64,000 nucleotides of DNA from Nanobdellota archaeon. Lineage in GTDB: Archaea > Nanobdellota > Nanobdellia > Woesearchaeales > GCA-2686295. The notes under the pieces are model-generated. The model made no database searches. It worked only from the letters and a program-made list of their open reading frames with translations, and was not told where the DNA came from. The DNA is taken from positions 4,964-68,963 of the forward strand of contig JAHIUF010000018.1 of NCBI GenBank assembly GCA_018817005.1, in the 5' to 3' direction. The position numbers and the translations under genes are program-made. Positions 1,264 through 63,390 of this stretch are shown in pieces (positions within the stretch are counted from its first letter, which is position 1; the number at the start of each line of letters is the position of its first letter).

Positions 1264-1560
1264 TCATCCTAACTTAAACGATTCTAAAACGCATTTCTTC
1301 TTGTATTGTCTTTTAGATAAATTTAGTAAAAAATAATCCATTTTTTAAAAGGTAATTTCTTCTTCTATTTTAAAATTACCCCATTTCTACTTTTTAGCCT
1401 CTCAAATTTATTGTATCTAATTCATGCTAAGTGACCCGAGTCACTCCTACAAATATTGGCGAGTTGAGAGAATAAGGCGAGAATAGCAAAGTCTTGGAAC
1501 GGTTTTTCTTGTAGTGAAGTGAAAAAAAAAAATTCGATGATTGTTACTCAAAATTATCAA

Positions 1561-4248
1561 CTACCAAACAAGGTATTTTAAAACAAATCTATTTTCTTTT
1601 CTAATAAAAATCTTTCTTAACTCATCTCCAAATAGTATTATTAAAGCAAAAGGCACAGATAATAATATTTCAAAAGCTGTTAATGGTTGAGTTCCAAAAA
1701 AAACATTACCTCCTGGAAGATAGACTACTATTGATAAAATTATTAATTCAATCATTATCCCAAGCAAAATAACTTTATTTTTACTAAATCCTGATTTAAA
1801 CACGGATTGTCTTCTTGTTCTACATATCCAAACATCTGCAATTTGACAAATTATTATGCTTGCAAAGAAAGCTGTAACTGCTTTTTGGTACAATGGATTA
1901 CTTAAAGCTAATTGCTGCCCCCATGTCCACCCACCATTAAATAGCACTACGAAATATGAGAAAAATCCTGCTATTGCTTGTAACATCCCGATTATTCCAT
2001 ACGACATAAAAAGAAGTTGTGGTGTAAGCAACCTTTCTTTTCTTGATCTTGGTTTATTTTTCATAACATCAATTTCTGGTTTTTCAATTCCTAGGCCAAT
2101 AGCAGGCAATATATCTGTACCTAAGTCAATAGCTAATATTAGTATTATACTGAGGGGTAAAGGAAGCCCTAATAAAACAAAGGCGATAAAAGGTAATATC
2201 TCTGGAATATTACTAGTTAAAATATATGCAATGAACTTTTTTATGTTTTCGAAAATAGTCCTTCCTTCTTCCACAGCATTAACGATGGTTGCAAAATTAT
2301 CATCCATCAACACCATGTCACTAGCTTCTCTAGCCACTTCTGTCCCGCTTAACCCCATAGCCACACCCATATCTGCATTTTTCAAAGCAGGAGCGTCATT
2401 AACACCATCACCCGTAACTGTAACTATTTCACCCATTGACTGTAAGGTTTTCACTATCTTGAGTTTTTGAATTGGATTTATTCTTGCAAAAATTATATTT
2501 TGTTTTTTTAGTTCTTCTTTAAGCTTTTTTTCACTCATTCTTTTTAATTCATCCCCGGTTATTATTGTTGCTTTTTCATGATCTACCAGACCAACTTTTC
2601 TTGCAATTGACTCTGCTGTAAGACTATAATCCCCAGTTATCATTATAACTTTTATGCCAGCAGTCTTACATTTTTTTATTGCATCAAAAACCTCTATTCT
2701 AGGGGGATCAAGCATTCCGACTAAGCCAAGAAAGATAAAGTTGTTTTCTTTCGCTTTTTCTGTTTTTGTCTCCTTATATGAGAATGCTAGAACTCTCTCA
2801 CCTCTTGAAGCAAGTTTCTCGTAATAATTAGATATTAATAGTTTATCCCTTTTTGATAAGCTCCTTATTTTATTTTCTACTAAGATTTTATTGCATTTAT
2901 TTATAATTATTTCAGGAGCCCCCTTCATATATGCAATCTTTTTACCAGCTGATTTATTTGTAGTGATCATCCTCTTCGTTTTACTATCGAAAGGAGATTC
3001 GTGGATTCTCTCCTCTTTCATAATTAGTTTTTCTATATCAATAAAATTCTGAGAGAAATTCATTAGTGAAGTCTCTGTAGGATCACCAGAATAGCTTTTA
3101 TCGTTAGTATTTAATTTTGAGTTATTACAAAGAACCATTGTTTTAATCAATAAATTTAACCCTTTAATATTATTTATACCTTTCTCAGAAGCGTTTGTTT
3201 CTTTAGAATTAACAAATAATGTATTAACTGTCATTTTATTCTGAGTTATTGTGCCTGTCTTGTCAGTGCATATCACTGTTGTAGAACCCAATGTTTCAAC
3301 AGATTCAAGATTTTTTATGAGTGCATTCTTCTTTGCCATTCTTTTTGAAGCAATACTTAAACATAAAGTGACTGTTGGCAATAAACCTTCTGGTACGTTT
3401 GCAACTATTATTCCTATTGCGAAGATAATACTTCTAATTAGTGTGTTTCCAATAAAAAAACTTGTGATGAAGAAAACTAAGCTGAGAATAATAGCAATAG
3501 TTGATATTACCTTAATGAAATGATTTAATTCTTTACGTAAAGGAGTTTCTGATCCTTCTGTTTCTTTTGTTAGTTTTACAATATCGCCGATTTGTGTATT
3601 TATACCTGTTCCGTAGACAAGAGCTTTTCCATTTCCTGACTGCACTAAAGTTCCGGAAAAAACCATATTTCTGGATTCTAAAATATTTTTGTGAGTGCAC
3701 TCTAATTTTCTTAGCTGAGGTTCTGATTCACCTGTTATAGATGAGTTATCAACTTTTAAGGAATTCTGTTCTATAAGTCTGGCATCAGCAGGAACTTTTT
3801 CTCCCTCATTAAGAAAGATTATATCTCCAGGCACTATTTCGTTTGCTTCAATTTCTTGTATTTTTCCATCTCTAATAACACTTGCTTTCTGCGGAAGCAT
3901 TTTCTTAAAAGACTCCATAATTTTTTCAGATTGGTATTCTTGAACAAATGTAAAGATTGCATTCAGCACAACAACGCCTGCTAGTGCTATTCCAATGTAA
4001 AGATTTCCCTCACCAGGCAAAATATATTCTGCAAAAAAAGCGATGAGAGATCCTGCTATCAACAATAAGGCAAAGAAATTTTTAAACTGTTTCAAAAATT
4101 TTAATACTGCAGGTATTTTCTTTTTTGTTTCAAGTATATTAAAACCATGTATTTTTAATCGTTCTTTTGCTTCTACGGAAGACAAGCCACTAAAGGAAGA
4201 TTTCACTTGCTGGTAAAGTTGTTCTAATGGAATTTTATGTTCATTCAT
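1561..4248 (-). CDS. P-type cation-transporting ATPase (P2-type, Ca2+/cation pump-like)
   Basis: 895 aa; phosphorylation motif ICTDKTGTITQN, hinge motif TGDGVNDAPALKNADMGVAMG, about 10 predicted TM segments. Confidence 0.85.
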   Translation of the reverse strand: MNEHKIPLEQLYQQVKSSFSGLSSVEAKERLKIHGFNILETKKKIPAVLKFLKQFKNFFALLLIAGSLIAFFAEYILPGEGNLYIGIALAGVVVLNAIFTFVQEYQSEKIMESFKKMLPQKASVIRDGKIQEIEANEIVPGDIIFLNEGEKVPADARLIEQNSLKVDNSSITGESEPQLRKLECTHKNILESRNMVFSGTLVQSGNGKALVYGTGINTQIGDIVKLTKETEGSETPLRKELNHFIKVISTIAIILSLVFFITSFFIGNTLIRSIIFAIGIIVANVPEGLLPTVTLCLSIASKRMAKKNALIKNLESVETLGSTTVICTDKTGTITQNKMTVNTLFVNSKETNASEKGINNIKGLNLLIKTMVLCNNSKLNTNDKSYSGDPTETSLMNFSQNFIDIEKLIMKEERIHESPFDSKTKRMITTNKSAGKKIAYMKGAPEIIINKCNKILVENKIRSLSKRDKLLISNYYEKLASRGERVLAFSYKETKTEKAKENNFIFLGLVGMLDPPRIEVFDAIKKCKTAGIKVIMITGDYSLTAESIARKVGLVDHEKATIITGDELKRMSEKKLKEELKKQNIIFARINPIQKLKIVKTLQSMGEIVTVTGDGVNDAPALKNADMGVAMGLSGTEVAREASDMVLMDDNFATIVNAVEEGRTIFENIKKFIAYILTSNIPEILPFIAFVLLGLPLPLSIILILAIDLGTDILPAIGLGIEKPEIDVMKNKPRSRKERLLTPQLLFMSYGIIGMLQAIAGFFSYFVVLFNGGWTWGQQLALSNPLYQKAVTAFFASIIICQIADVWICRTRRQSVFKSGFSKNKVILLGIMIELIILSIVVYLPGGNVFFGTQPLTAFEILLSVPFALIILFGDELRKIFIRKENRFVLKYLVW

Positions 4249-4283: not shown

Positions 4284-5114
4284 ATGTTTTTCTACAAAGC
4301 CGATATGTTTATAAAACTCAATAATTCTTATATGATTATGACTGTTGAGAAACATACAAAAAAAATGTATAATCAATTTGGTAAAGAATACCAAAGAACA
4401 AGAAAAGAGAAACATAATAGTCGTTTGTACAATGAATTTCTTGAAGTTCCTTGCATGATTAAAGCTATCGGAAACATTAAAGGTAAAAAATTGTTGGATG
4501 TTGGTTGTGGTGCAGGAGTTCATATAAAAAAATATATTTCAAAAGGTGCTAAATGTTGGGGGGTGGATATTAGTCGAACTATGATAAATATGGCAAAAGA
4601 GAAATGTCCTAATGTTGATTTTAAGATTGGTTCTATGACTAAACTACCTTATGAAAATTCTTCATTTGATATTGTTACTGCAAGTCTTAGTATTGATTAT
4701 ATCAAAGATTTAATTCCTGTCTTCAAAGAGATATCGAGAGTTCTGAAGAAAGGAGGGTTGTTTTATTATTCAAATGAAAGCCCCGTTGCTTCTGCAAGGG
4801 AAAGGTATGAAGATAAAAACTTTAAAATTGTTGGAATTGGCAAATTTTTTGATAAAAAAACAGGAAAGCAAATTGCTCTTGGCAAAGGATGGGATGAAAG
4901 ACTTGTAGATTGGGAAATGGTTCCAGGAATGTTAATGAAAACTTACAATAAAACATTTAGAACTCAATTAAAAAATTTAAGAGAATCAGGATTTGAATTG
5001 ATTGATTTTATAGATTGTAAACCAACACCAACATTCAAAAAATATGACCCAACAGCTTATGAATTATTTTCAAAAGTTCCATTATTTAGTATTTATGTTT
5101 CTCAAAAGAAATAA
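4284..5114 (+). CDS. Class I SAM-dependent methyltransferase (type 11-like)
   Basis: Motif I LLDVGCGAGVHI; true start may be an internal Met (4332 or 4365) because the divergent P-type ATPase start is only 35 nt away. Confidence 0.65.
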   Translation: MFFYKADMFIKLNNSYMIMTVEKHTKKMYNQFGKEYQRTRKEKHNSRLYNEFLEVPCMIKAIGNIKGKKLLDVGCGAGVHIKKYISKGAKCWGVDISRTMINMAKEKCPNVDFKIGSMTKLPYENSSFDIVTASLSIDYIKDLIPVFKEISRVLKKGGLFYYSNESPVASARERYEDKNFKIVGIGKFFDKKTGKQIALGKGWDERLVDWEMVPGMLMKTYNKTFRTQLKNLRESGFELIDFIDCKPTPTFKKYDPTAYELFSKVPLFSIYVSQKK

Positions 5115-5160: not shown

Positions 5161-5227
5161 ACAGACAAATTCTCAACTTACTTCAAATTCACTCTGCTAC
5201 GCTACGCTCTCACTCCAATTTGTCTGT
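5161..5227. repeat. Intergenic element: 11-bp perfect inverted repeats (ACAGACAAATT/AATTTGTCTGT) flanking conserved core TTCAAATTCACTCTGC plus GCTAC tandem
   Basis: Read directly; core 16-mer (5182-5197) is identical to 15599-15614 and degenerate at 5886-5914. Confidence 0.35.
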
Positions 5228-5306
5228 AACTAACGACTCAACTAACAGAAATTAAGTTTAATGAAATTTAAGTTCTAAAAAAATAAAAACACTCTTTGGC
5301 AAAAAT

Positions 5307-5789
5307 TTACTTAAGTAATTCTGCAATGTGTTCTTCAGCATCAAGAATACTTCTTAATTCATGTTCTTCAAAAATTGCAATCCTTCTAAATCGTTCCATT
5401 TTTTCCTCTTCTTCATGCAATCCTGTAACAACCATACCAAAAGCCATGTTGCTAACTGTAGAAAGCCATTTTTCAGGTTGATTCTCAATAACATTTTCCA
5501 TAATCTTAGCATCAGCCTCAACATTTCTTAATAATTCGTCAAATTTCTGGAATAACTCAGTAACACTATTTACCCATCCTTCAATCTCAGCTATGTGTAA
5601 TTCATGTAGTCTATTTAGATATTCGCTTGTTTTATGGCTCTCAACCAATTTTCTTAAGCTATGAGTATATACCAAAATCTTAACAAGAATATTTCTTGCA
5701 TGAATCTTGCCTACTTCAGTATCTATAGAACGAGGAATATCTTTAAGTAAGATAATAAGATTATCAATTAATTTAAAAGTATGTTTCAC
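5307..5789 (-). CDS. hypothetical protein
   Basis: 160-aa ORF, helical/acidic, no recognizable motif. Confidence 0.4.
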   Translation of the reverse strand: MKHTFKLIDNLIILLKDIPRSIDTEVGKIHARNILVKILVYTHSLRKLVESHKTSEYLNRLHELHIAEIEGWVNSVTELFQKFDELLRNVEADAKIMENVIENQPEKWLSTVSNMAFGMVVTGLHEEEEKMERFRRIAIFEEHELRSILDAEEHIAELLK

Positions 5790-5860: not shown

Positions 5861-5925
5861 GTTCATTTTGTTCACTTAATGAACTAACTTCAAATTTTTC
5901 CTTCACTTTGCTACAAAACGTTGCA
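5861..5925. repeat. Degenerate copy of intergenic core motif (ACTTCAAATT...CACTTTGCTAC) with upstream 7-bp inverted repeat GTTCATT/AATGAAC
   Basis: Alignment by eye with copies at 5161-5227 and 15572-15640. Confidence 0.25.
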
Positions 5926-6026
5926 CTCTGGCCCGGTGCTAACGCACTCACTTAACACTGATTAAGTAAAATATTACTTACCACCCATAGAATAATTTAT
6001 AAATATTATTTATTTGAGAATATGTT

Positions 6027-6506
6027 ATGAATATATTTAATCATTTTCTCACATCATTTATTGTACTTTTCATATTATTTCATAACAATGTTTTAATCAA
6101 AGAATTGGTTTTATTTTCATTCGTATTTGGTGTTTTATTAGACCTTAATCAAGTAATTGGAAGATATTTAAAAAAATCAAAAAACCACACTAGAACATGG
6201 ATTGAAGAACCATTTGGTTTAATTATTATTGGAATTCCATTAGGTTTAATTTTTAGTATAATAAAAACTGAATATTTCTTTTTGGTTATTATTCCTTTTG
6301 CAATTCATATAATTCTAGATTATCTTGTCATACATGAGGTTTCACCATTCGTCCCATTTTCAAATAAAAATATTGAACTCGGTTTTTTTAAATCAGCACC
6401 ACCACCTTTATGGTATACTGGAGAAGAAAAGGGTATTTCAGAAAACTATTTTTTAATATTAAATATGATTATAACTATGATTATTTTATGGACTATTTTC
6501 TTTTAA
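6027..6506 (+). CDS. hypothetical integral membrane protein (possibly YdjM/DUF457-like membrane hydrolase)
   Basis: 159 aa, 4-5 hydrophobic segments, His-rich motif IHIILDYLVIHE. Confidence 0.4.
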   Translation: MNIFNHFLTSFIVLFILFHNNVLIKELVLFSFVFGVLLDLNQVIGRYLKKSKNHTRTWIEEPFGLIIIGIPLGLIFSIIKTEYFFLVIIPFAIHIILDYLVIHEVSPFVPFSNKNIELGFFKSAPPPLWYTGEEKGISENYFLILNMIITMIILWTIFF

Positions 6507-6593
6507 TTGACTGTTGTGTCTTACTGTCACCTTTGGAGATTTTTCTTGCAGCCCCTTCACATTATGGTGATTAAACTCAATAATTTTGAGAGG

Positions 6594-7238
6594 CTAAAAA
6601 TTGAAGCGGTTAGGATTTTTTTGTCTTAATGTTTCAACGACTTCGCAAGTTCTTTTTACAATAGAATCATAAACCTCATCTTTAAGTCCTAGATTTGGAA
6701 AATTATTCAAAGAAGTTATTTGTTCTAAAGATGGTTGTTGTAAAGAACTCATTTCAGGAATAATTTTTAACATCCAAGGAGTTTTATGAGGTGGATTAGT
6801 TTTCGCTATTTCAATAACACTATTATAATCGTGTGTTCCTCCTTGATAGCCTCTGTTTTCAAGAAGTGAACAAACCGCATCCACTGCTCCAACAAGCATA
6901 TCATCTTCAGAAGCACCGATGACTGGTTTTGTTCTATCATTCGGATTAGGGTCGTTCCATTTCTGATGATGATATTGTTGTCTGTGTAAATTCAACGCAG
7001 GCATTATGTGAATTTGAAAATCTGGCTTTGGATTTCTATACTGTAGAGCAAACCCCTTTATTATATTCCATGAATATTTGTTTCCAGGTCCAACTAAATC
7101 ATGAGGTCTTTGAGGATCATTCGTTCCAAGGTTTAATCTCCCTAAAAAATATTCGACGTGACACGCGTGTTGAAGAGTTGAAACTAGCCAAGTTTTTATT
7201 TCATCTTCAGTTGGAATTAATTCTGTTTTAAAAGTCAT
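6594..7238 (-). CDS. hypothetical protein (His-rich, possible metal-dependent enzyme)
   Basis: 214-aa ORF overlapping the upstream ORF by 4 nt (operon); motifs HVEYF, RPHDL, HHQKW. Confidence 0.45.
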   Translation of the reverse strand: MTFKTELIPTEDEIKTWLVSTLQHACHVEYFLGRLNLGTNDPQRPHDLVGPGNKYSWNIIKGFALQYRNPKPDFQIHIMPALNLHRQQYHHQKWNDPNPNDRTKPVIGASEDDMLVGAVDAVCSLLENRGYQGGTHDYNSVIEIAKTNPPHKTPWMLKIIPEMSSLQQPSLEQITSLNNFPNLGLKDEVYDSIVKRTCEVVETLRQKNPNRFNF

Positions 7239-11794: not shown

Positions 11795-13291
11795 TTAACT
11801 ACCACAACCACAACTTCCACCTCTTGTAGCCTCACAAACAGGAGATCCACAACTTCCACCACATGAGCCTTTTGGTTGTTGTGGAACTTGATTAATCTCT
11901 TTTTGTACTGCTTCTTGGTCAGAAAGATTAACATCATTTATTACAATGAATGTTCCAGGAATCATTCCCATCCAACAACTCCATCTCACAACACCTTCTT
12001 CATCAGGTGTAAACTCAACTATTTGTTCTCCTGATTTAATATTAAACTCCAAACCATATTTTGGTACTTGAATTGCATTATTACAACCAGTTATTTCTTT
12101 ACCATTAATTATCCATCTTACAGGAACTCCTTTCTTTAATACAAATGTGTCAGGATTCCAACCATTTCTGTTTACTTCCATTCTAATCTCTTGAAAACCA
12201 TCACTAACCGCAAGCACGCTTCCAACTGCCATTTCTTTAGTTCCAGTTGCAGTTACAAATCCGGAGATTGAAGAAAAATCATATCCAGTACCTGTTAGGA
12301 CAAGACTGTTGTTAATCATCACTAAACCAAGAATTATAACTATGACTCCTGATGCCTTTAATATTTTTTGCGTAACTTTTCCAGATACAAAACTTGCAAA
12401 ATATCCAAAACCAAGCATTACAGGTAATGTTCCAAGACCAAAAACTAAAAGTAGTTTTGCTCCTCCAATCATACTTCCTGTTCCTGCAGCCATAATATAT
12501 ATTGCCTGCAAAGGTCCACAAGCAATCATCAATCCATTTAACAAGCCGATTGTTAAAGGACTGGAGTATTTTGAGTTTTTACCAACGAAGTTTGTGATAA
12601 ATTTTGGTGTTCTTAATTGAATTTTTCTTAAGATTGGAAATATATTTAGCATTTTAAGTCCGTATAATACAAGAAACAATCCTGCTAGAAATCCAATCAC
12701 GCCTCTAATTGTTGGTGTGAATGCAATAAATGATCCGAGCAATCCAAATATTGCTCCTATAATGGTATATGAAGTAGTTTTTCCAATCCCATACATGAGA
12801 TGAGATTTATGAGATTTTGTTCCTTCCTGAGCGTGTTTTGCAGCATAACTAATAACAAACCCTCCACACATACTAATACAATGAAATCCTGTTAGTAATC
12901 CAACAACAAATAATAACCCAAAACTCATATTCTGACTTATGCTTGGCAACTGGATTCCATCAACAAAATTAAATAAAAAATATCCTACAATTATTAGTCC
13001 TATAATTGCAGAAATCCATCCAAAAGTTTTGTTGGTATTTTGTTTTTGTTCATTAAGAATAGAACAAGTGTAATTTTTTTCCTCAATTTTTGATAATATT
13101 TCATCAATATCTGTTTTTTTCTTATCAAAAACAACATAACCTGTTTCAGTTGACAGATCAAATGATACTTTGTTTACTCCGTTAACTTTAAGTGCTTGTT
13201 TCTTTATAATTGTTGCACAACCATCACAAGTTGTGCCTTTTGCGATAAAACCTTTTTTTTCAATCATTTTAATAAACCTCATAACCTTCAT
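11795..13291 (-). CDS. Heavy-metal-associated membrane protein: HMA domain, DsbD_2-like transmembrane core, cupredoxin-like domain, Cys-rich C-terminal tail
   Basis: N-terminal CDGCA metal-binding motif, TM region with CISMCGG, C-terminal beta-domain with CNNA...CWMGMIPG, tail GSCGGSCGSPVCEATRGGSCGCGS. Confidence 0.55.
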   Translation of the reverse strand: MKVMRFIKMIEKKGFIAKGTTCDGCATIIKKQALKVNGVNKVSFDLSTETGYVVFDKKKTDIDEILSKIEEKNYTCSILNEQKQNTNKTFGWISAIIGLIIVGYFLFNFVDGIQLPSISQNMSFGLLFVVGLLTGFHCISMCGGFVISYAAKHAQEGTKSHKSHLMYGIGKTTSYTIIGAIFGLLGSFIAFTPTIRGVIGFLAGLFLVLYGLKMLNIFPILRKIQLRTPKFITNFVGKNSKYSSPLTIGLLNGLMIACGPLQAIYIMAAGTGSMIGGAKLLLVFGLGTLPVMLGFGYFASFVSGKVTQKILKASGVIVIILGLVMINNSLVLTGTGYDFSSISGFVTATGTKEMAVGSVLAVSDGFQEIRMEVNRNGWNPDTFVLKKGVPVRWIINGKEITGCNNAIQVPKYGLEFNIKSGEQIVEFTPDEEGVVRWSCWMGMIPGTFIVINDVNLSDQEAVQKEINQVPQQPKGSCGGSCGSPVCEATRGGSCGCGS

Positions 13292-15571: not shown

Positions 15572-15640
15572 ACATACTGTGTTCACTAGACTAATAAGTT
15601 CAAATTCACTCTGCAAACATAAAGTTTTCAAAACAGTATT
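15572..15640. repeat. Intergenic element: core TTCAAATTCACTCTGC (15599-15614) flanked by 7-bp inverted repeats ATACTGT/ACAGTAT
   Basis: Identical 16-mer to 5182-5197; inverted repeats read directly. Confidence 0.35.
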
Positions 15641-15755
15641 AATTATAACTAAAAATAAATTTATCAGAAAAAAATATAATTTAAAAAAAACTAATTTATC
15701 AAAGCGTTTGCAACGCTAGTTAATACTTTTTTATTTTTAATTTAATAAGTTTTAA

Positions 15756-15947
15756 CTAAACTCTTTTTACATTAACTGCTTTTGGGCCTCTGTCTCCATT
15801 TTCTACATCAAATGTGACTTCGTCGTTTTCGTGTAAAGTTACTCCATCTCCTAACGAAGATTGATGTACAAAAACTTCTTTTCCATCTTCAGCAGCAATA
15901 AATCCAAATCCTTTCATTTCATTGAAAAATTTTACTGTTCCATTCAT
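15756..15947 (-). CDS. Cold-shock protein (CspA family)
   Basis: [17 protein letters not shown]...VNVKRV; GGAGGTG Shine-Dalgarno 7 nt upstream of this Met (the upstream Met sits inside the SD). Confidence 0.85.
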
Positions 15948-16122
15948 TTTTTTCACCTCCATATATTTTTTGGTTTAATATTAGTTCTCAGAATTCGCCT
16001 CGTAAATTTGTTAAATAAATATTTTAATTGACAAATAGTCAAAGTTCTGATTAGTATAGAAATGATGGTTCCTTTTTAAATGATTCTATTTAGTTCTGTT
16101 TATTACAACAATCTCAACAATC

Positions 16123-20152: not shown

Positions 20153-20196
20153 AAAAAAAAGAAAAGAAGACAGATTTAAAAAGGTTTATAACAAAT

Positions 20197-20497
20197 CTAA
20201 ATTGCACCAAGAATTATGACAACAAGTATTCCTGCAATAAGAGAAAAAATTGTTAAGTGATTCTTACAGTTTCCACAAGAAGCAATAATAACTCCAACAA
20301 CACAAATAAAAATCAACGATTGAGCTATACTTTCAGGTACTAACTCCCAAAAAAGATATCACAAGCATAACACCACCTGCAAATGCAAGCATTGAATACA
20401 TAAATCTATTATTGGGTTTTTTCAAAACACCAATAAGCGAACCTAAAAATGGTCCTAAACCCTAAACCGCCAAAATTAAGATAATAGTGTTCTGCAT
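20197..20497 (-). pseudogene. Remnant of a ZIP-family (ZupT-like) metal transporter: N-terminal ~100 codons with in-frame amber stop and a T-run frameshift
   Basis: Minus-strand translation MQNTIILILAV*GLGPFLGSLIGVLKKPNNRFMYSMLAFAGGVMLVISF(frameshift)ELVPESIAQS... matches the ZupT N-terminus (..[47 protein letters not shown]); about 160 codons are missing. Confidence 0.45.
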
Positions 20498-20665
20498 ATT
20501 ATTTTTATAAAAAAATTAATCTATATAAATGTATTTTTATTTTAAAAAACGAGTTTCAAGCCCTTAAAATGAAAACGTTTATAAACAAATTCTTGTTTTG
20601 TTGAAAAAACATAACTGAAAATCAAAATCTGGTTTTCATTTATGCAATATTTCGGAGGAGAAAAT

Positions 20666-37866: not shown

Positions 37867-38052
37867 GGACCTATAGCCTAGCCTGGCAACCTTTTGAGCA
37901 AGTCAAAAGCTTGACCAAAAATCGTCCGACATAAAGTCGAACAAGTTGGGCAAATAAGGCGACAGCCTTCTAAAGTCAAGGTTTCCTTGAACTTTTCAAG
38001 AGCTTTGACTGCTGATAGCTGTAGATCGGGGGTTCGAATCCCCCTAGGTCCA
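37867..38052 (+). tRNA. tRNA-Arg (anticodon TCT) with two introns (about 67 nt in the D-loop, about 44 nt at canonical 37/38)
   Basis: Acceptor GGACCTA/TAGGTCC, D-stem GCCT/AGGC (37957-37960), anticodon stem ACAGC/GCTGT, loop CTTCTAA, T-arm GGGGG-TTCGAAT-CCCCC, discriminator A; exons approx 37867-37889, 37957-37972, 38017-38052. Confidence 0.75.
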
Positions 38053-41320: not shown

Positions 41321-42379
41321 TTGTTAAAAAAGGTGTTGGTTTTGAAAAAAGAAAAACAATCAACTATAAAGTTACTGCTAAAGCTACTGCTATTGTTAAC
41401 AATTTTAGTGGAAATAATGGTGTTTGTATCACAAGCAACTGCTCAAATCTTAATAACAGAGGTTTTGTACAACCCGATAAATACTGAATCCGGAGGTGAA
41501 GTAATTGAACTTTATAATCCCACAAATAAAACAATAAACATCTCTAATTGGAAAATTTCATCTGAATCATCTGATAAAGACGCAGTCATGGCTCCCAACA
41601 CATCCATAGCGCCAGAAGAGTACTTTTTGATAGCAGACACTGGTTTTAGCCTAAAAAAGGATAACTCTTCCTGGCCGGATGCAAATTATGAAGAAACAAT
41701 AACCCTCTCAAACACGAACGCCGGTATTGCACTAATAGATATTAATAATAAAACTATAGACGCTGTTGGCTGGGGTGAAACGTCAGAAATAAATACGGGA
41801 CTTTATGAAGGCACACCTGTAGAACATGTTCTTGAAGGATTAAGTCTACAAAGAAAATTCAACACGACTTTTCAAGATACAAACAATAACATCAATGATT
41901 TCATATCAAAAAAACCTTCATTAAAACAAGCAACTATTCTAGAAAAAACTATCATCATAAATACAACAATAAACAATACAACAACAAACAATGAAACAAT
42001 AAAAAATGAATCTCAAAAAACAAATTTTTCAAACACATTAATAATTAAGAAAACCCTATTCATAAACATCAACAACAAAAACACAACGATTACGAGTTTT
42101 GAAATAAAAAACAATTCAACACGAAACATAACACTTAAAATAAAAAGCACAAATTTCACAACAGAAAACAAGAGCTTTGATTTAAATTGGATAAATTACT
42201 CAATAAATAATTTTGAAACAGAACAAAAACTAACGAGAACATTTCAAGAAACAAAGATAATAAAATCCAACGAAAAGATTAACTTATCACTAAAAATCAA
42301 GTGGTGCAACCAAACAAACAGAGAATACAAAGGAAGAATAATCTTTGAATCTACATCCAGCAGTATCAACAGCATATAA
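41321..42379 (+). CDS. Secreted lamin-tail-domain (LTD) protein with Asn/Thr-rich sequon-dense C-terminal region
   Basis: Signal/TM at N-terminus; ILITEVLYNPINTESGGEVIELYNPTNKTINISNWKI matches the LTD signature; numerous N-x-S/T sequons. Confidence 0.55.
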   Translation: MLKKVLVLKKEKQSTIKLLLKLLLLLTILVEIMVFVSQATAQILITEVLYNPINTESGGEVIELYNPTNKTINISNWKISSESSDKDAVMAPNTSIAPEEYFLIADTGFSLKKDNSSWPDANYEETITLSNTNAGIALIDINNKTIDAVGWGETSEINTGLYEGTPVEHVLEGLSLQRKFNTTFQDTNNNINDFISKKPSLKQATILEKTIIINTTINNTTTNNETIKNESQKTNFSNTLIIKKTLFININNKNTTITSFEIKNNSTRNITLKIKSTNFTTENKSFDLNWINYSINNFETEQKLTRTFQETKIIKSNEKINLSLKIKWCNQTNREYKGRIIFESTSSSINSI

Positions 42380-42401
42380 CTTATACAAAAAAAAACTATA
42401 A

Positions 42402-44165
42402 CTAACTGTAATATAGATTTCCTTTCGACTTCTGCTCCCTGTCAAGCTGAGAATTAACCTTATTTGCCCTTGGACGATTATTCTCATCATCCCTTCTAAA
42501 AGTAAGCTCTAAATCTTTAAGAAATTTATTCATACCTTCACTCATATCAAAAGGTCCTTTTACAACACCATTCACAGCCGGTTCACCATCAAAAACAATT
42601 AATCTATCGGAAAGATAATCAATGAACAATAAATCATGATCAACAATCAAAGCAGATTTGCCCATTTGCTCCATAACATCTTTTATGACTTTCGAAACAA
42701 TAAGTCTTTGCTCAACGTCAAGATACGCAGAGGGTTCATCCATAAGAATTATGTCTGAATCCTCAGAAAGACATTTCGCAATCATCACTCTTTGAAGCTC
42801 CCCACCACTAAGTTCTGAAAGCTTTTTCGTTAAGAAACCTTTTAGATTCAAAGGATTAACTATCGTTGCTTGATACTTATCTAAGGCACACTTTAATACA
42901 ACCATAACCAACTCATCATTTGGCTCTAAGTATTGAGGTTTATACGCAACTTTCAACTTTTCAATCTTATCCTTTGTATCAACAACCCCTGCAAGAATTC
43001 TTACAAAACTAGTCTTTCCAATTCCATTCTCTCCAAGAATTCCAACAGTATCACTTCTATATAATTTTCCTGAGTTAACCTTTAAATTAAAAGAACCAAA
43101 ATCTTGTTCCAATTCATCCCAAGAAACCATTTCAAACTCAACTTTTTTTGAAATAGGTGGTTTTTTCAAAAACTTTATTTCATGATCCCTAAAACGAATG
43201 TTTTCCTCTTTCAAGTATCCTGATAAATAAACATTAATTCCTGCTTTTGTAGTTTTTATCATTGAAACAATTCCAAAAGCACCTTCTTTCCCATACATTA
43301 AATGAACAAAGTCAGTCATGTAATCAAGTATAATCAAATCGTGTTCTATAACCATAACTGCTGTTTCTTCATCAGCAAGTCCTCTGATAAATTTTGAAAC
43401 CTTTAGTCGCTGCTTCATATCAAGATAAGATGACGGTTCATCAAAAAAATATATGTTCGCTTTTTTTAGAACTGTTGCTGCAATTGCAACTCTTTGAAGT
43501 TCTCCACCAGAAATCTTCTTAATATCATGATCTAAGATTTTTTCAATTTCAAGTTCTTTCGTAATTTCTAAAATTCGATTTTTCTCATCAGTTTTTGACA
43601 ACAAATCCCTTACAGTGCCAGAAAACTCTTTTGGTATCATATCCACTTGTTGAGGCTTATAAGCAACTCTAACAACACCTTTTTTTCGTTTTTCAAAAAA
43701 CATTTGAGCTTCTGTTCCCTTAAAATAATCAATAAGTTCTTCATGCGTCGCAACATGAGCATTAGCTTCAACCCTTCCAAGATTAGGGTCAAGCACACCT
43801 GCAAGAATCTTTATAGCTGTTGATTTTCCAATACCATTACAACCAACAATGCCAACAACTTTTCCGAAAATAGGTGTTGGCAGGTTAAAAAGAGCAAATC
43901 CATTCTTTCCATAACGATGAATAGGCTCTTTATCAAGCTCTGCAGGCAAATTAATCATCTCAAGAGCATTAAAAGGACATTTATTTGCAGCAATTCGGTC
44001 ACCATCAGTAATAACTTCTTCATTTACCTCAACCTTGCCATCGTCAGATTTATGAATCGCATCCTTACCCATTCTATTCGAGGGACTAACCCGAATACAC
44101 AAGTAACCACCACAACCTATAGGATTACATTTCTCTTTTTTTACAATCATGATTCTTTTATTCAT
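42402..44165 (-). CDS. abcE1: ABCE1 (RNase L inhibitor-like ribosome recycling ATPase)
   Basis: N-terminal Fe-S Cys clusters (CNPIGCGGYLC...C; NKCPFNA), two ABC NBDs (GCNGIGKST, GENGIGKTS; LSGGELQRV twice), 587 aa. Confidence 0.85.
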   Translation of the reverse strand: MNKRIMIVKKEKCNPIGCGGYLCIRVSPSNRMGKDAIHKSDDGKVEVNEEVITDGDRIAANKCPFNALEMINLPAELDKEPIHRYGKNGFALFNLPTPIFGKVVGIVGCNGIGKSTAIKILAGVLDPNLGRVEANAHVATHEELIDYFKGTEAQMFFEKRKKGVVRVAYKPQQVDMIPKEFSGTVRDLLSKTDEKNRILEITKELEIEKILDHDIKKISGGELQRVAIAATVLKKANIYFFDEPSSYLDMKQRLKVSKFIRGLADEETAVMVIEHDLIILDYMTDFVHLMYGKEGAFGIVSMIKTTKAGINVYLSGYLKEENIRFRDHEIKFLKKPPISKKVEFEMVSWDELEQDFGSFNLKVNSGKLYRSDTVGILGENGIGKTSFVRILAGVVDTKDKIEKLKVAYKPQYLEPNDELVMVVLKCALDKYQATIVNPLNLKGFLTKKLSELSGGELQRVMIAKCLSEDSDIILMDEPSAYLDVEQRLIVSKVIKDVMEQMGKSALIVDHDLLFIDYLSDRLIVFDGEPAVNGVVKGPFDMSEGMNKFLKDLELTFRRDDENNRPRANKVNSQLDREQKSKGNLYYS

Positions 44166-44286: not shown

Positions 44287-46587
44287 ATGAAGGGGTTTAT
44301 CGTTTATCCAACTTATAGAATTGTTGATGAGAAGGCTTATGTTCATTTATTCGGAAGGCTTGAGAATGGAGAATCTTTTTTGACCATTAATCATTTTAGG
44401 CCATATTTTTTCATAAGAAAAAAAGACTTGAAAAAAGCCTTAAAAATTGAAACTTTCGAGTACGAAACAACAACTCTTAAAACATTTTCAGAAGACCCGG
44501 TTGTAAAAGTGATTTTGGATATTCCAAGAAAAGTTCCTGAGTTTAGAAAAATTTTTTATGAACAGGATGTTGAAAGTTTTGAAGCAGATATTCGTTTTTC
44601 CTATCGATTCATGATGGATAAGAATCTTAAAGGAAGTATTGAAATAAAAGGTGATTATAAAAAAGGAGAATTTGTTTCAAGGATTTATGAAGAACCTGAG
44701 ATTCTGCCGAGCAATTGGATTCCAAAGCTTAAGGTTTTATCTATTGATATTGAAACTGATAGTCATGCGAGAGAATTATTTTGTATATCAATGCATACAG
44801 ATGATTTTTCAAAAGTAATAATTCGTTCTGAAAAGGATATAAAGAATGCTATAAGCGTAAAGTCTGAAAAAGAATTGCTCGAAGTATTCAAAGAAAAACT
44901 ATTATTGCTTGACCCGGATATTATAACTGGTTGGAATGTCATTGATTTTGACCTTATTAAACTTCAGGAAAAATTCTTGCAGTATGGAATGGATTTCAAA
45001 CTTGGAAGGATTAATTGGAATTGTAAAATTCGAAAACAAGAATCTTTTTTCAAGGATTCAACCGCTGATTTTCCGGGAAGAGTAATTCTTGATGGTATAA
45101 CACTCTTAAAAATTTCATTTGTGAAATTGCCCGACTTCAAACTTGACACTGCAGCAACAATTATCTTGGGTGAAAAAAAGCTTATAGGTGTTGAAAATAA
45201 AGGAAAAGAAATTGAAGACGCATTCAAGAAAAATCCACAAAAACTAGTTGAATATAATTTAAATGATTCTGTTCTTGTTACAAAAATCTTGGAAAAAACA
45301 GGTGTTTTAAATTTAACAATAAAAAGATCGCTTCTTACAGGCATACAACTTGATAAGGTAAAAGGCAGTATTTCAGCTTTTGACTCATTATATCTTCGTG
45401 ATCTTCAAAAAAAAGGATACGTTGCGCCTTCAGCAAAATTTGGTGAACGTGAAGAACGAATAAAAGGCGGATATGTTATGAGCTCAAAACCGGGAATATA
45501 TGATTATGTCATTGTTTGCGACTTCAAAAGTCTATATCCAAGCATCATAAAAACGTTTAACATTGATCCATTCACATATGTTGAAGATTGCAAAGGAAAA
45601 AACCTGATTAAAGCCCCAAATGGTGCTTGCTTTAGAAAAGAAAAAGGCCTTCTTTTTGAAATGATTGAAAGACTTTGGAAAGCAAGAGATGAATTAAAAA
45701 AGAAGGATGATCAAACAGGAAGTTATGCTATAAAAGTTTTGATGAATTCAATGTTTGGGGTTATGGCAAACCCTGTTTTTAGATTTTACAACAATAAAAT
45801 CGCGAATGCAATAACTCATTTTGGTCAGCATTTCATAAAATTCGCTACGAAAAAAGTAGAAGAATTAGGTTATGAAGTGATATACGGCGATACAGATTCA
45901 ATATTTGTTAATCTTGATGTTAAAAATTATGAAGAAGCAAAAAAAGTAGGAATTGACATTCAAAATAAAATAAACAATTTTTTTAATAATCATATAATAA
46001 AAGAATATGGTTGTGAAAATTTTTTAGAATTAGAATTTGAAAAGGTTTACAAGCGTTTTCTCATGCCGAAAGCCAGAGGCTCTGAGCAAGGTTCAAAAAA
46101 AAGATATGCAGGTCTTCTTATAAAAGATAATAAAGAGCAAATGGATTTTGTAGGTTTAGAATTTGTAAGACGAGATTGGACAAAGCTTGCAAAAACATTC
46201 CAACTTGAGCTTTTGAAAAAAATATTTCGTAAAGAAGAGGTTGCAAAGTACATACAAACATTTGTAAAAGACTTAAAAAAAGGAAAACATGATGATTTAC
46301 TCATTTATAGGAAAGCCATTAGAAAAAATCTTGATGAATATACAAAAACAACTCCTCCTCATGTCAAGGCTGCAAGAATGCTTCCAAAACTCACAAGCAG
46401 CATCATTGATTATATTATGACTATTAACGGGCCTGAACCCATTCAACTATTAAAAAGCAATATTGATTATGAACATTACATTGAAAAACAGATAAAGCCG
46501 TTGGCAGATACTGTTCTTTCGTTTTATGACACTAACTTTGATGACATAATTAACAATAGTTCTCAAAAAACCTTGTTTGGATATTAG
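44287..46587 (+). CDS. polB: DNA polymerase, family B
   Basis: Exo I LSIDIETD, Pol motif A DFKSLYPSII, motif C YGDTDS; 766 aa, no intein. Confidence 0.9.
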   Translation: MKGFIVYPTYRIVDEKAYVHLFGRLENGESFLTINHFRPYFFIRKKDLKKALKIETFEYETTTLKTFSEDPVVKVILDIPRKVPEFRKIFYEQDVESFEADIRFSYRFMMDKNLKGSIEIKGDYKKGEFVSRIYEEPEILPSNWIPKLKVLSIDIETDSHARELFCISMHTDDFSKVIIRSEKDIKNAISVKSEKELLEVFKEKLLLLDPDIITGWNVIDFDLIKLQEKFLQYGMDFKLGRINWNCKIRKQESFFKDSTADFPGRVILDGITLLKISFVKLPDFKLDTAATIILGEKKLIGVENKGKEIEDAFKKNPQKLVEYNLNDSVLVTKILEKTGVLNLTIKRSLLTGIQLDKVKGSISAFDSLYLRDLQKKGYVAPSAKFGEREERIKGGYVMSSKPGIYDYVIVCDFKSLYPSIIKTFNIDPFTYVEDCKGKNLIKAPNGACFRKEKGLLFEMIERLWKARDELKKKDDQTGSYAIKVLMNSMFGVMANPVFRFYNNKIANAITHFGQHFIKFATKKVEELGYEVIYGDTDSIFVNLDVKNYEEAKKVGIDIQNKINNFFNNHIIKEYGCENFLELEFEKVYKRFLMPKARGSEQGSKKRYAGLLIKDNKEQMDFVGLEFVRRDWTKLAKTFQLELLKKIFRKEEVAKYIQTFVKDLKKGKHDDLLIYRKAIRKNLDEYTKTTPPHVKAARMLPKLTSSIIDYIMTINGPEPIQLLKSNIDYEHYIEKQIKPLADTVLSFYDTNFDDIINNSSQKTLFGY

Positions 46588-58885: not shown

Positions 58886-58938
58886 AAAACCTGTGATTAG
58901 AAAATTAAAATTTGAATTAAAAATTTAAGGTAAACCCT

Positions 58939-58968
58939 GGAAGATTCCAAGAAGTGTCGGAATCTTCC
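58939..58968. terminator. Perfect 10-bp hairpin (GGAAGATTCC-N10-GGAATCTTCC) between convergent genes
   Basis: Inverted repeat read directly; T-rich run follows on the minus strand. Confidence 0.2.
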
Positions 58969-59112
58969 CGGGAAAAAGAGGTGAGTTAGAGTTTGTGATA
59001 ATAAGATTGATTCACCGCTTTTTTCTATTTTAGAATGGTGAAAATAAACTCATATATAAAGCTTTCGTTTTATTTTTCATTCTATAATAGTAACAAAAGC
59101 AGTTGTTGCTTT

Positions 59113-62997: not shown

Positions 62998-63125
62998 GCG
63001 CACCCCCAAAACAAATATATTTCAGAGAAGTTAATAAAAGTTTCGTTTTAAACCATTAAAAACCGAGACTTAAAGAGATATACAAGAGATAGATTTAAAA
63101 AGCAAAAAACTTTCTTCCAGATTGC

Positions 63126-63390
63126 TAGACTGGGTGGCTCGTCCTCACCTGTAACTGCAAACGGATGTACGGCAGGGTTGAAGCCTGAGGGGCGGCGTAA
63201 TTTTAGTTATAGGTCTTGGTTGGACCGTCGACGTCTTGTCCTTTAGGATCAGGATTTTTATGAACTGAGTCAGATCAGGAATGAAGCAGCTCTAAGTATT
63301 AATCGTGGTGTCTAAGGGGTTGCAGGATTGAGGAAAAATCAAGGTAGCCTTTGATTGGAGTTTTCGTCCACCTTCAGGCGTGCACTTTTA
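63126..63390 (+). ncRNA. Signal recognition particle RNA (7S/SRP RNA) candidate
   Basis: GC-rich island in AT-rich genome; helix-8-like GAGUCAGAUCA-GGAA-UGAAGCAGCUC (compare E. coli 4.5S GUCAGGUCCGGAAGGAAGCAGCC); 5'/3' regions complementary; TATA-like GATTTAAAAA about 30 nt upstream, T-run after. Confidence 0.55.

What the first reader, a model, noticed from the sequence alone, without database searches (positions are those of the whole stretch)
5161..5227. Family of palindrome-flanked intergenic elements sharing the core TTCAAATTCACTCTGC (copy 1)
An identical 16-mer occurs in two intergenic regions (5182-5197 and 15599-15614), with a degenerate third copy at 5886-5914 (ACTTCAAATT...CACTTTGCTAC). 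Each copy is bracketed by its own inverted repeats: 11-bp perfect here, 7-bp at the others. A single random 16-mer match is expected in 64 kb. All copies being intergenic, GC-richer than the surroundings and IR-flanked argues for a small structured-RNA family or MITE-like element.
Basis: seen in the sequence. Interest (0 to 1): 0.5.

Follow-up and report, generated by a model that had tools for sequence, protein, structure and literature searches.

The report
Clustered intergenic repeats bordering gene modules
The flagged sequence is one real copy of a small, species-specific family of roughly 100-base non-coding DNA repeats that sit between neighbouring gene modules in one corner of a tiny (DPANN) archaeon's genome, but it is not a folded RNA, and the "identical 16-mer" that drew attention is no better than chance.

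Summary
The window comes from a 30%-GC Woesearchaeota/"Nanoarchaeota" MAG. Its statistics do not hold. The window has 41 repeated 16-mers against about 19 in shuffles, 9 perfect 11-bp inverted repeats against 4.5, and 907 7-bp ones.

A real family does exist, with different members. Leave-one-out profile searches over the 77-kb source contig recover copy 1 (5172-5264), copy 3 (5868-5974), an inverted copy at 1407-1526, and three to four more copies just left of the window (E 2e-5 to 0.013, one at 1.5). Controls recovered 0 of 56. The 15599 copy is never recovered.

All copies lie in the leftmost 11 kb of the contig, one per intergenic gap between 1-5-gene accessory modules. They sit next to a possibly related 91-nt tandem array (weak profile hits only).

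There is no consensus secondary structure, no Rfam hit, no canonical attC fold, no consistent terminal inverted repeats and no recombinase on the contig. Relatives at 58-69% protein identity lack the family.

Best reading: DNA-level junction or recombination-type repeats of a cassette-like array. The function is unproven. Interest is moderate to low.

The parts
5172..5264 (+). Family copy c1, the finding itself. The C-rich strand is the + strand. It lies between the convergent methyltransferase gene (4284-5114, +) and a 160-aa hypothetical ORF (5307-5789, -).
   Evidence: With c1 left out, the profile of the other six copies recovers it as the top non-training hit in the 77-kb contig (E = 2.3e-5). 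Controls recovered 0 of 56 at E < 1.
5161..5227 (.). An 11-bp perfect inverted repeat (arms 5161-5171 and 5217-5227) enclosing 45 nt. It is specific to this copy and is not at a conserved position in the family.
   Evidence: pair I7. Nine such inverted repeats occur in the window against 4.5 in shuffles. The + strand fold has z = -2.67, owing only to this stem; the - strand fold is not significant.
5182..5197 (+). The 16-mer TTCAAATTCACTCTGC. It lies within blocks 1-2 of c1.
   Evidence: the exact duplicate at 15599 is consistent with chance.
5868..5974 (+). Family copy c3, in the divergent gap between the 160-aa ORF (-) and a YdjM-like gene (6027-6506, +). Together with c1 it flanks the 160-aa ORF as a direct repeat.
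   Evidence: Leave-one-out E = 1.8e-5. Local alignment of c1 against c3 covers about 90 columns; 2 of 500 shuffles score as well.
1407..1526 (-). Family copy c6, the only inverted copy (its C-rich strand is the - strand). It lies in the convergent gap between an HD-domain gene (583-1263, +) and a P-type ATPase gene (1561-4248, -).
   Evidence: Leave-one-out E = 0.0018; alignment A3.
1391..1421 (.). Left arm of a 31-nt inverted repeat (87% complementary). It overlaps the outer end of c6.
   Evidence: pair I2 (L001 6704-6734 against 11883-11913). It includes the exact 16-mer TTTTTAGCCTCTCAAA.
6570..6600 (.). Right arm of the same 31-nt inverted repeat. It may be a partial family copy, seen by eye only; the family profiles did not pick it up. 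The two arms enclose a 5.1-kb segment holding c6, the ATPase, the methyltransferase, c1, the 160-aa ORF, c3 and YdjM.
15577..15658 (+). It lies between the cold-shock gene terminator and a CrtO-like gene. It is not a demonstrable family member; at best it is a decayed partial copy.
   Evidence: Not recovered by the 7-copy profile even at E < 1000. E = 0.89 with the profile of the c1 and c3 5' halves.
5307..5789 (-). A 160-aa hypothetical ORF bracketed by c1 and c3, forming a single-gene module. Its homologues occur in other Woesearchaeota without synteny and without the repeats.

Best explanation
**What it is (shown).** The locus is one copy of a lineage-specific family of about 95-120-bp non-coding DNA repeats. 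At least six copies are firm and one is weak. A neighbouring 91-nt tandem array gives only weak profile hits and may be related.

The copies share four short sequence blocks in fixed order. On the C-rich strand these read roughly GAACTT..CAAATT, then CAYTYTGC, then ACGTTRCRCTCTC, then CA-YTAACA-NNR-ATTAAGT. Spacing between blocks varies and overall identity is only 37-62%.

**Where the copies sit (shown).** There is one copy in each of seven successive intergenic gaps. Six of seven have the same orientation. They separate modules of one to five unrelated accessory-type genes, most of them one or two:
- a HEPN/nucleotidyltransferase pair
- an aminoglycoside-nucleotidyltransferase-like gene
- a GDSL lipase plus an HD-domain gene
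- a P-type ATPase plus a methyltransferase
- small hypothetical genes

**How it most likely works (inferred).** The repeats act at the DNA level. They are junction or recombination-type sites, or scars of such sites, in a cassette-like array. Modules would have been inserted, inverted or exchanged at these sites. The last block is a short imperfect dyad around TAACA and would be the candidate recombinase-binding core.

They are not a folded RNA. The 11-bp palindrome of copy 1 and the 16-mer shared with 15599 are incidental.
For: **The family is real**
- Leave-one-out nhmmer over 77.4 kb, both strands, ranks each left-out copy first among non-training hits: c1 2.3e-5, c3 1.8e-5, c7 6.1e-5, c5 7.6e-4, c6 1.8e-3, c4 0.013, c8 1.5.
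- The same procedure on random G+C-rich intergenic segments recovered 0 of 56 at E < 1; the best was 21.

**Placement**
- All seven copies fall in the first 11.3 kb of the contig, which holds 26% of its intergenic bases (p about 8e-5).
- Every copy is intergenic, and six of seven share one orientation.
- Gap types are mixed: convergent for c1 and c6, divergent for c3 and c7, tandem for c4, c5 and c8 (gene calls). This argues against a promoter, terminator or UTR role.
- The flanking genes are not paralogues, so the repeats did not spread by gene duplication.

**Module content is accessory-type**: HEPN (PF05168) next to NTP_transf_2, and Aminoglyc_resit (PF10706) at 24.3 bits against a cut-off of 21.

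**Conservation is in blocks, not uniform** (alignments A3 and A4).
- TAACA is kept in six of seven copies.
- The heptamers ending in AAC (ATCTAAC, ATTTAAC, ACTTAAC, ACATAAC, AACTAAC) resemble the RYYYAAC-A start of nine experimentally used archaeal attC sites (PMC9668308, Data S9, read; alignment A5).

**Signs of local rearrangement**
- A 31-nt inverted repeat (87%) brackets a 5.1-kb segment whose left end is the single inverted copy.
- A 91-nt tandem array that may be related sits at the contig end (profile hits at E 0.3-5).

**Against an RNA role**: zero consensus base pairs on either strand and no Rfam match.
Against: - No integrase, Xer-type recombinase or transposase is adjacent. The only rve-domain gene is about 76 kb away, at the other end of the contig.
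- A covariance model built from nine archaeal attC sites finds nothing significant in the window or L001. That model is crude, with only 6 base pairs.
- No partner box (GTTRRRY) lies 50-140 nt from the TAACA block, and no long hairpin forms.
- The short dyad around TAACA is present only in c3, c4 and the tandem unit, is imperfect in c1 and c5, and is absent from c6-c8 (read from the sequence).
- Gene orientation within the array is mixed, and some modules are 2-3.6 kb.
- G+C at third codon positions in the module genes matches the core genes (0.196 against 0.228). There is therefore no compositional sign of recent import.
- Homologues of the 160-aa ORF in other Woesearchaeota carry no such repeat.
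- No strain showed presence/absence of a module at a repeat. All other assemblies are 99.9-100% identical where they overlap.
- Only 77 kb of the genome could be examined. Clustering could therefore be overstated.
Confidence: 0.38

Rival explanations
1. Decayed non-autonomous transposable element (MITE-, REP- or BOX-like modular repeat). The copies were spread by a transposase encoded elsewhere and are now eroding. On this reading the block structure reflects modular composition rather than present function.
For: - Size of about 100 bp, strictly intergenic, multi-copy and strongly diverged (37-62% identity).
- Some copies have short terminal inverted repeats: c5 has TGAACTT / AAGTTCA (7 of 7), c1 has AACTTACTT / AATTAAGTT (8 of 9), and c3 has arms at 5871-5880 / 5961-5970 (read from the sequence).
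- Subsets of copies share different segments. One example is the 19-mer shared by c7, c4 and c1 (family D6).
- An rve-family transposase gene exists on the contig.
Against: - The terminal inverted repeats are absent from c4, c6, c7 and c8. Where present, they are not at homologous alignment positions (alignment A3).
- No target-site duplication was seen.
- There are seven copies in 11 kb, one per gap, and none in the 66 kb of adjacent core genome, which has about 36 intergenic gaps.
- The family shows no similarity to the DNA around the rve gene (no nhmmer hit).
- Conservation is concentrated in blocks rather than decaying evenly.
Confidence: 0.25
2. A family of small RNA genes or cis-acting RNA elements. 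Each copy would be transcribed and would act through a shared fold or shared single-stranded motifs.
For: - The copies are richer in G+C than the AT-rich background and have strong strand asymmetry, C-rich/G-poor on one strand.
- Copy 1 has an 11-bp closing stem.
- The tandem-array unit has a 9-bp closing stem followed by TTTT, and folds with z about -2.3.
- The short hairpin at the TAACA block shows compensatory differences between c3 (ACTTAA/TTAAGT) and the tandem unit (GTATAA/TTATAC); this is read from the sequence.
Against: - RNAalifold gives zero consensus pairs on both strands.
- Single-sequence folds are not better than shuffles for copy 3 or the 15599 site, or for copy 1 on the minus strand.
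- There is no Rfam match even at permissive thresholds.
- The closing stems sit at non-homologous positions in different copies. Stems of that length are expected by chance.
- No promoter-like box or T-run is placed consistently on either strand (read from the sequence).
Confidence: 0.12
3. A canonical integron cassette array without its integrase (a CALIN). The repeats would be true attC sites recombined by an IntI integrase encoded beyond the contig end.
For: - Integron arrays and CALINs have been reported in Woesearchaeales MAGs (PMC9668308).
- Here the sites lie 0.6-3.7 kb apart, mostly co-oriented, and separate small accessory genes, including a toxin-antitoxin-like pair and an aminoglycoside nucleotidyltransferase-like gene.
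- The TAACA block matches the R'' box RYYYAAC-A.
- The contig ends at the array, so an intI gene could lie just beyond it.
Against: - No R' box (GTTRRRY) or L''/L' pairing was found, and no hairpin of 55-140 nt forms.
- The covariance model from nine archaeal attC sites gives no hit at any repeat. The best is E = 6.6 near c4, and the top hits lie in coding DNA.
- Cassette genes point both ways.
- The conserved ~80 nt lies upstream of the R''-like box, not downstream where the rest of an attC would be.
Confidence: 0.07
4. Binding-site clusters for a DNA-binding protein (a regulator or chromatin protein) that co-regulates or insulates the neighbouring accessory genes.
For: - Short conserved blocks with variable spacing.
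- Repeated TCACT / AGTGA pentamers within the copies (read from the sequence).
- TrmB- and MarR-family regulators are encoded nearby.
Against: - Two copies lie in convergent gaps where there is nothing to regulate.
- The flanking genes share no functional theme.
- None of this explains the tandem array or the inverted copy with its 31-nt inverted repeat.
Confidence: 0.1
5. There is no element. The similarities are chance matches between low-complexity AT-rich intergenic sequences.
For: - The 16-mer duplicate, the 7-bp inverted repeats and the 11-bp inverted repeat are all within chance expectation.
- BLAST all-against-all of the intergenic regions at E < 1e-3 does not link the copies.
- Pairwise identity is only about 50%.
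Against: - Leave-one-out profile E-values reach 2e-5, with every left-out copy ranking first.
- The matched control recovered 0 of 56.
- The copies are clustered (p about 8e-5) and mostly co-oriented.
Confidence: 0.04

Closest known systems
Integron attC sites in clusters without an integrase (CALINs), including those reported in Archaea (Ghaly et al. 2022, PMC9668308)
   Same: - An array of related ~60-140-bp sites, mostly in one orientation, each separating one or a few small accessory genes.
- Sites within one genome resemble each other more than sites in other genomes.
- One conserved block matches the RYYYAAC-A start of attC. Its heptamers ACATAAC and ATCTAAC are identical to those of tested archaeal attC sites, and the neighbouring tandem-array unit carries GTATAAC.
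   Different: - No GTTRRRY partner box, no L boxes and no long imperfect hairpin.
- The conserved sequence lies on the wrong side of the RYYYAAC-like box.
- The genes point both ways.
- No IntI was found.
- A covariance model built from archaeal attC sites does not detect the repeats.
MITEs and modular intergenic repeats of bacteria and archaea (REP/BIME, pneumococcal BOX, Sulfolobus SM-type MITEs). This comparison rests on my own knowledge of these families.
   Same: Short, non-coding and strictly intergenic. Multi-copy and species-specific. Built of sequence blocks, with some copies carrying short terminal inverted repeats.
   Different: - No consistent terminal inverted repeats, target-site duplication or stable fold.
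- Copies are packed one per gap in an 11-kb stretch rather than dispersed.
- No cognate transposase was identified.
Xer/dif-type core sites flanking movable modules, such as the pdif modules of Acinetobacter plasmids and archaeal XerA/dif. This comparison also rests on my own knowledge.
   Same: - In c3, c4 and the tandem unit, the last block is an imperfect dyad with a 4-6-nt centre (ACTTAA-TCAGTG-TTAAGT; CGTATAA-N5-TTATACG). This recalls two inverted recombinase-binding arms.
- The repeats flank gene modules, and one pair is inverted.
   Different: - The dyad is not conserved in c6-c8.
- About 80 nt of further conserved sequence lies on one side.
- No Xer-type recombinase is on the contig.
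- The resemblance was noticed after the fact and was not tested statistically.
Rfam small RNA families and archaeal C/D-box sRNAs
   Same: Islands in intergenic DNA of an AT-rich archaeon that are richer in G+C than their surroundings.
   Different: No Rfam match. I saw no C, D, C' or D' boxes in the sequence. There is no conserved structure or covariation.

Membership tests
Integron attC / CALIN | An R'' box (RYYYAAC) at one end of the site | tested here: inconclusive
   At one alignment column, c8, c4 and c3 have perfect matches (ATCTAAC, ATTTAAC, ACTTAAC). c1, c5, c7 and c6 are one mismatch off (alignment A3; compared with A5). The motif carries little information and was matched after the fact.
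Integron attC / CALIN | An R' box (GTTRRRY) 50-140 nt downstream that pairs with R'', together with L''/L' pairing, giving an imperfect hairpin on the single strand | tested here: not met
   RNAalifold finds no consensus pairs, and single-sequence folds are not significant. The covariance model from nine archaeal attC sites gives no hit at the repeats. Only a 4-6-nt-spaced mini-dyad follows the R''-like box.
Integron attC / CALIN | At least two sites within about 4 kb, co-oriented, separated by gene cassettes | tested here: met
   Seven sites lie 0.6-3.7 kb apart and six share one orientation. However, the cassette genes are in mixed orientation.
Integron attC / CALIN | An IntI tyrosine recombinase with an attI site (needed for a complete integron) | tested here: inconclusive
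   No Phage_integrase-type domain was found in any gene of the 77-kb contig. The contig ends at the array, so a gene just beyond it cannot be excluded.
MITE | Terminal inverted repeats conserved among the copies | tested here: not met
   Short terminal inverted repeats occur only in c5, c1 and c3, at non-homologous positions. None occur in c4, c6, c7 or c8. Inverted repeats of this length are abundant by chance.
MITE | Target-site duplication flanking each copy | tested here: not met
   Reading the flanks showed no consistent flanking direct repeat. Within c1, the first and last blocks resemble each other (CTCAACT at 5171 and 5236), but this lies inside the element.
MITE | Dispersed genome-wide copies and a parent IS with matching ends | not testable with these tools
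   Only 77 kb of the genome is reachable. The genome contigs and metagenome contigs pattern scans returned only chance hits. The rve gene on the contig shows no similarity to the family.
Structured non-coding RNA family | A conserved secondary structure supported by covariation | tested here: not met
   There are zero predicted consensus pairs on either strand of the seven-copy alignment.
Structured non-coding RNA family | Membership of a described RNA family | tested here: not met
   There was no Rfam 15 match at gathering score for the window, or at permissive E-value thresholds for the loci: E up to 10 within the window and E up to 1 for L001 1-5400.
Structured non-coding RNA family | Transcription as a discrete small RNA | not testable with these tools
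   No expression data are available. No consistently placed promoter-like box or T-run was seen on reading the sequences.
Xer/dif-type recombination core site | Two inverted ~11-bp arms around a 6-8-bp centre, conserved in all copies, with a cognate Xer recombinase | tested here: inconclusive
   The dyad is clear in c3, c4 and the tandem unit, imperfect in c1 and c5, and absent in c6-c8 (sequences). No recombinase is on the contig.

The most novel reading that the evidence does not exclude
The repeats are working recombination sites of a previously undescribed, non-integron cassette system in DPANN archaea. The site would have two parts: a short TAACA-centred dyad as the core, and about 80 nt of accessory blocks. 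It would be used by an unidentified recombinase to insert, invert and shuffle one- or two-gene accessory modules. The neighbouring 91-nt tandem array would be a run of empty sites.
Probability: 0.12. Interest if true: 0.7.

Novelty: new member of a known kind. Interest (0 to 1): 0.3.

Why it matters
DPANN archaea have very small genomes, and little is known about how they gain and rearrange accessory genes. Integron-like arrays have only recently been reported in them.

A repeat family marking the border of almost every small gene module in one region would be a concrete handle on that process. Strain comparisons and recombination assays could test it.

If the repeats are only decaying selfish DNA, the finding is a routine annotation item. 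The practical lesson is that the exact 16-mer and the palindromes that drew attention carry no weight in a 30%-GC genome. The real signal came only from profile searches with controls.

Tried and rejected
**Searches of public collections**
- Two-block degenerate pattern on viral contigs and metagenome contigs: 1 and 9 hits, all in unrelated or coding DNA. The source organism itself is not in the metagenome collection.
- Tandem-array unit scanned against viral contigs, and L001 1-1700 against plasmids by BLAST: nothing.

**Relatives**
- Homologues of the 160-aa ORF (58-69% identity) and of the 286-aa neighbour (62%) were fetched with their flanks. There is no synteny and no family hit.
- A profile built from a separate two-copy element in L006 does not hit this contig.

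**Alternative readings of the sequence**
- Coding: an open frame runs through several copies to a shared TAA. It was rejected because the identical 12-mer TACGCTCTCACT is read in different frames in c1 and c4.
- CRISPR, type III toxin-antitoxin array, DGR, C/D-box sRNA, split-tRNA, replication-origin ORB, IS200/IS605-type ends. All were considered from the sequence and dropped because their defining parts are missing. These were judged from my own knowledge and not formally tested.
- Gene duplication as the source of the repeats: rejected, because the flanking genes show no paralogy.
- Compositional sign of recent horizontal transfer: none.

**Strain comparison**
- All other assemblies are 99.9-100% identical over the overlap.
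- Some contig breaks fall inside c5, inside the tandem array and inside another repeat-bearing gap. With short-read assemblies this is not interpretable.

**Other**
- BLAST all-against-all of the intergenic regions mostly finds shared promoter-like AT-rich boxes, not the family.

Full report
**Source and setting.** The window is archaeal. It carries an archaeal SRP RNA at 63118-63389 and averages about 30% G+C. Proteins from the window are named in NCBI as coming from "Nanoarchaeota archaeon" or Woesearchaeota MAGs. The window lies on a 77.6-kb ENA contig, ERZ27247128 k141_354598. Locus L001 covers the 5.3 kb of that contig to the left of the window, so window position = L001 position - 5313.

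**Checking the observation.**
- the 16-mer at 5182 and 15599
- the gapped copy at 5889-5911
- the 11-bp perfect inverted repeat at 5161-5171 / 5217-5227
- short inverted repeats around the other two sites

The statistical argument fails in a 30%-GC sequence.
- The window has 41 repeated 16-mers, against about 19 in dinucleotide shuffles.
- Restricted to 16-mers with at least 6 G/C, 2 are observed against 0.6 expected, and 42% of shuffles have at least one.
- Perfect inverted repeats of at least 11 bp with loops up to 100 nt occur 9 times against 4.5 expected. Seven-bp inverted repeats occur 907 times.

Neither the exact 16-mer nor "each copy has its own palindrome" therefore exceeds chance.

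**The real signal.**
- Copy 1 and copy 3 align collinearly over about 90 nt. Only 2 of 500 shuffles score as well.
- They flank a single 160-aa hypothetical ORF (5307-5789, minus strand) as a direct repeat.
- Profile searches then found weak hits in other intergenic gaps. These were L001 5052-5096 (E = 0.3), L001 1558-1623 (E = 0.38) and window 1411-1505 on the minus strand (E = 5.6).
- Reading all gaps by eye added two more candidates, at L001 about 4400-4500 and about 3750-3850.

I tested membership without circularity. For each candidate I built a profile from the other six and searched the whole 77.4-kb contig on both strands. Every left-out copy was the top non-training hit:

| Copy | Position | E-value |
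|---|---|---|
| c1 | window 5172-5264 | 2.3e-5 |
| c3 | window 5868-5974 | 1.8e-5 |
| c7 | L001 4402-4499 | 6.1e-5 |
| c5 | L001 1520-1626 | 7.6e-4 |
| c6 | window 1407-1526, minus | 1.8e-3 |
| c4 | L001 5010-5105 | 0.013 |
| c8 | L001 3750-3847 | 1.5 |

The same procedure on random sets of the most G+C-rich 100-nt pieces of other intergenic gaps recovered 0 of 56 at E < 1; the best was 21. The family is real.

A profile of the 5' halves of c1 and c3 finds it only at E = 0.89. It is chance or a badly decayed fragment.

**Anatomy.**
- Copies are 95-120 nt long, C-rich and G-poor on one strand, and only 37-62% identical in pairs.
- Conservation is concentrated in four ordered blocks with variable spacing (alignments A3 and A4).
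- The last block, CA-YTAACA-NNR-ATTAAGT, keeps TAACA in six of seven copies.
- In c3, c4 and the tandem unit this block forms a short dyad: ACTTAA-CACTGA-TTAAGT and GTATAA-CACC-TTTATAC. The dyad is imperfect in c1 and c5 and absent in c6-c8.
- Some copies extend further. A 31-nt inverted repeat (87%) links window 1391-1421, at the outer end of c6, with 6570-6600. A 27-nt inverted repeat links L001 507-533 with L001 6686-6712.
- The contig's left end (L001 1-543) is a tandem array of a roughly 62-nt unit plus a roughly 30-nt AT-rich palindromic spacer. Its period is 91 nt. The unit gives weak hits to the family profile (E 0.3-5) and shares TACGCTC..AC.TCG and TATAACA with c4.

**Context.** All seven copies lie in the first 11.3 kb of the contig, which holds 26% of its intergenic bases (p about 8e-5). 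There is one copy in each of seven successive gaps, and six of seven share one orientation. The order along the contig is:

1. tandem array
2. 286-aa conserved hypothetical gene
3. c5
4. HEPN plus nucleotidyltransferase pair, then a 144-aa gene
5. c8
6. 151-aa gene
7. c7
8. aminoglycoside-2''-adenylyltransferase-like gene
9. c4
10. GDSL lipase plus HD-domain gene
11. c6 (inverted)
12. P-type ATPase plus methyltransferase
13. c1
14. 160-aa ORF
15. c3
16. YdjM-like gene

The gaps are convergent, divergent and tandem in turn. A shared promoter, terminator or UTR role therefore does not fit. The flanking genes are not paralogues. The remaining 66 kb is housekeeping DNA (UvrABC, aminoacyl-tRNA synthetases, PolB, MCM, ribosomal proteins) and holds no copy.

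**Testing the RNA reading.**
- RNAalifold predicts no consensus pair on either strand.
- Single-sequence folds do not beat shuffles, except on the plus strand of copy 1, where the copy-specific 11-bp stem gives z = -2.67.
- Rfam gives nothing at gathering score for the window, or at permissive thresholds for the loci.
- An open reading frame seemed to run through several copies. The same 12 nucleotides are read in different frames in c1 and c4, so the conservation is at the nucleotide level.

**Testing the integron reading.** Integron arrays, mostly without an integrase, have been described in Archaea, including Woesearchaeales (PMC9668308). The nine archaeal attC sites used in that paper's assays all begin RYYYAAC-AA and end GTT....
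- For: the family's last block matches that start, and the heptamers ACATAAC and ATCTAAC are identical to those of tested sites (the tandem-array unit carries GTATAAC). The spacing of the array and the gene content also look cassette-like.
- Against: the rest of an attC is missing. There is no partner box, no L-box pairing and no 55-140-nt hairpin.
- Against: the conserved ~80 nt lies on the wrong side of the box, and the genes point both ways.
- Against: a covariance model built from the nine attC sites finds nothing at the repeats. That model is crude, with only 6 base pairs.
- No recombinase domain is detectable on the contig.

I therefore do not file the repeats as attC sites.

**Testing the MITE reading.** Short terminal inverted repeats exist in c5 (7 of 7), c1 (8 of 9) and c3. 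They are not at homologous positions and are missing from the other copies. No target-site duplication is visible. The tight one-per-gap clustering is unlike dispersed transposition. The only transposase-like gene (rve) is at the far end of the contig and is unrelated in sequence.

**Looking elsewhere.**
- Pattern scans of genomes, metagenomes and viral contigs returned only chance matches.
- Woesearchaeota contigs carrying homologues of two neighbouring genes (58-69% identity) lack the family.
- Other assemblies of the same organism are 99.9-100% identical, so they give neither covariation nor structural variants.
- Third-position G+C in the module genes is like that of the core genes.

**Conclusion.** Copy 1 is a genuine member of a lineage-specific, clustered, non-coding DNA repeat family that marks the borders of small accessory-gene modules next to a possibly related tandem array. 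The most likely mechanism is inferred, not shown: DNA-level recombination at these junction repeats, in the manner of a cassette array, with the TAACA-centred block as the candidate protein-binding core. I put this at about 0.4.

A decayed MITE-like element is the main rival, at about 0.25. A small-RNA family, a regulatory binding-site cluster and a canonical integron are less likely. The 16-mer shared with 15599 and the palindromes are not evidence for anything.

Noticed in passing
L001 1-543 (contig end, about 5.3 kb left of the window start): A tandem array with a 91-nt period. TRF.2 copies at 89% identity, and a fourth unit is interrupted by about 130 nt. Each repeat is a roughly 62-nt unit closed by a 9-bp inverted repeat (GCACAAcTG / CAATTGTGC) and followed by TTTT, plus a roughly 30-nt AT-rich palindromic spacer. 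It is weakly related to the repeat family, has no Rfam match, and sits at the break of the assembly.
   Followed up: partly
window 37867-38052 (+): A 186-nt intron-containing tRNA gene, from 5' GGACCTATAGCCTAGCCTGG to 3' GGGGGTTCGAATCCCCCTAGGTCCA. Default ARAGORN and the Rfam gathering search both missed it. The identity is uncertain, and it may have two introns.
   Followed up: partly
L006 1688-1723 and 5679-5714 (another Woesearchaeota contig): A separate two-copy intergenic element, with about 140 nt alignable at 65%. Its 36-nt core is 89% identical between copies and forms a 5-bp stem (CAGCC/GGCTG against TAGCC/GGCTA, a compensatory change) around the conserved loop AAGTGCAACGC. One copy lies just downstream of the homologue of the 160-aa ORF. 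It is not detectably related to the family studied here.
   Followed up: partly
L001 3048-3214 (left of the window): A roughly 74-nt direct repeat (74% identity) inside the gap between the nucleotidyltransferase gene and the 144-aa gene. A contig from another sample (L002) begins inside it.
   Followed up: no
L001 497-536 and 1468-1535 (left of the window): Inverted segments (CAGAAAACGGCC ... GGGGGTAATTTCC, and the reverse complement) bracket the 286-aa conserved hypothetical gene. A third GGGGTAATTT segment lies at window 1373-1399. The gene is single-copy in other Woesearchaeota and has no recognisable domain.
   Followed up: partly
window 15756-15962 (-) and 15700-15720: A cold-shock-domain protein gene (PF00313, 79 bits), which from my own knowledge is uncommon in Archaea. 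It is followed by a GCGTT-TGC-AACGC hairpin and a T-run.
   Followed up: no
window about 42000-44000: The cumulative GC skew reaches its minimum here, close to the family-B DNA polymerase gene (44287-46587) and an MCM gene (49479-50648). This may be near a replication origin.
   Followed up: no
window 20153-20541: A 389-nt gap with strong C-over-G skew. It reads like a degraded or frameshifted small membrane-protein gene on the minus strand. A contig of another assembly (GCA_018814205.1) ends near 20879.
   Followed up: no
window 58930-58975: A G+C-rich hairpin (CCTGGAAGATTCC ... GGAATCTTCCCGGG) in a convergent gap between a Lon-like gene and a PLD-like gene.
   Followed up: no
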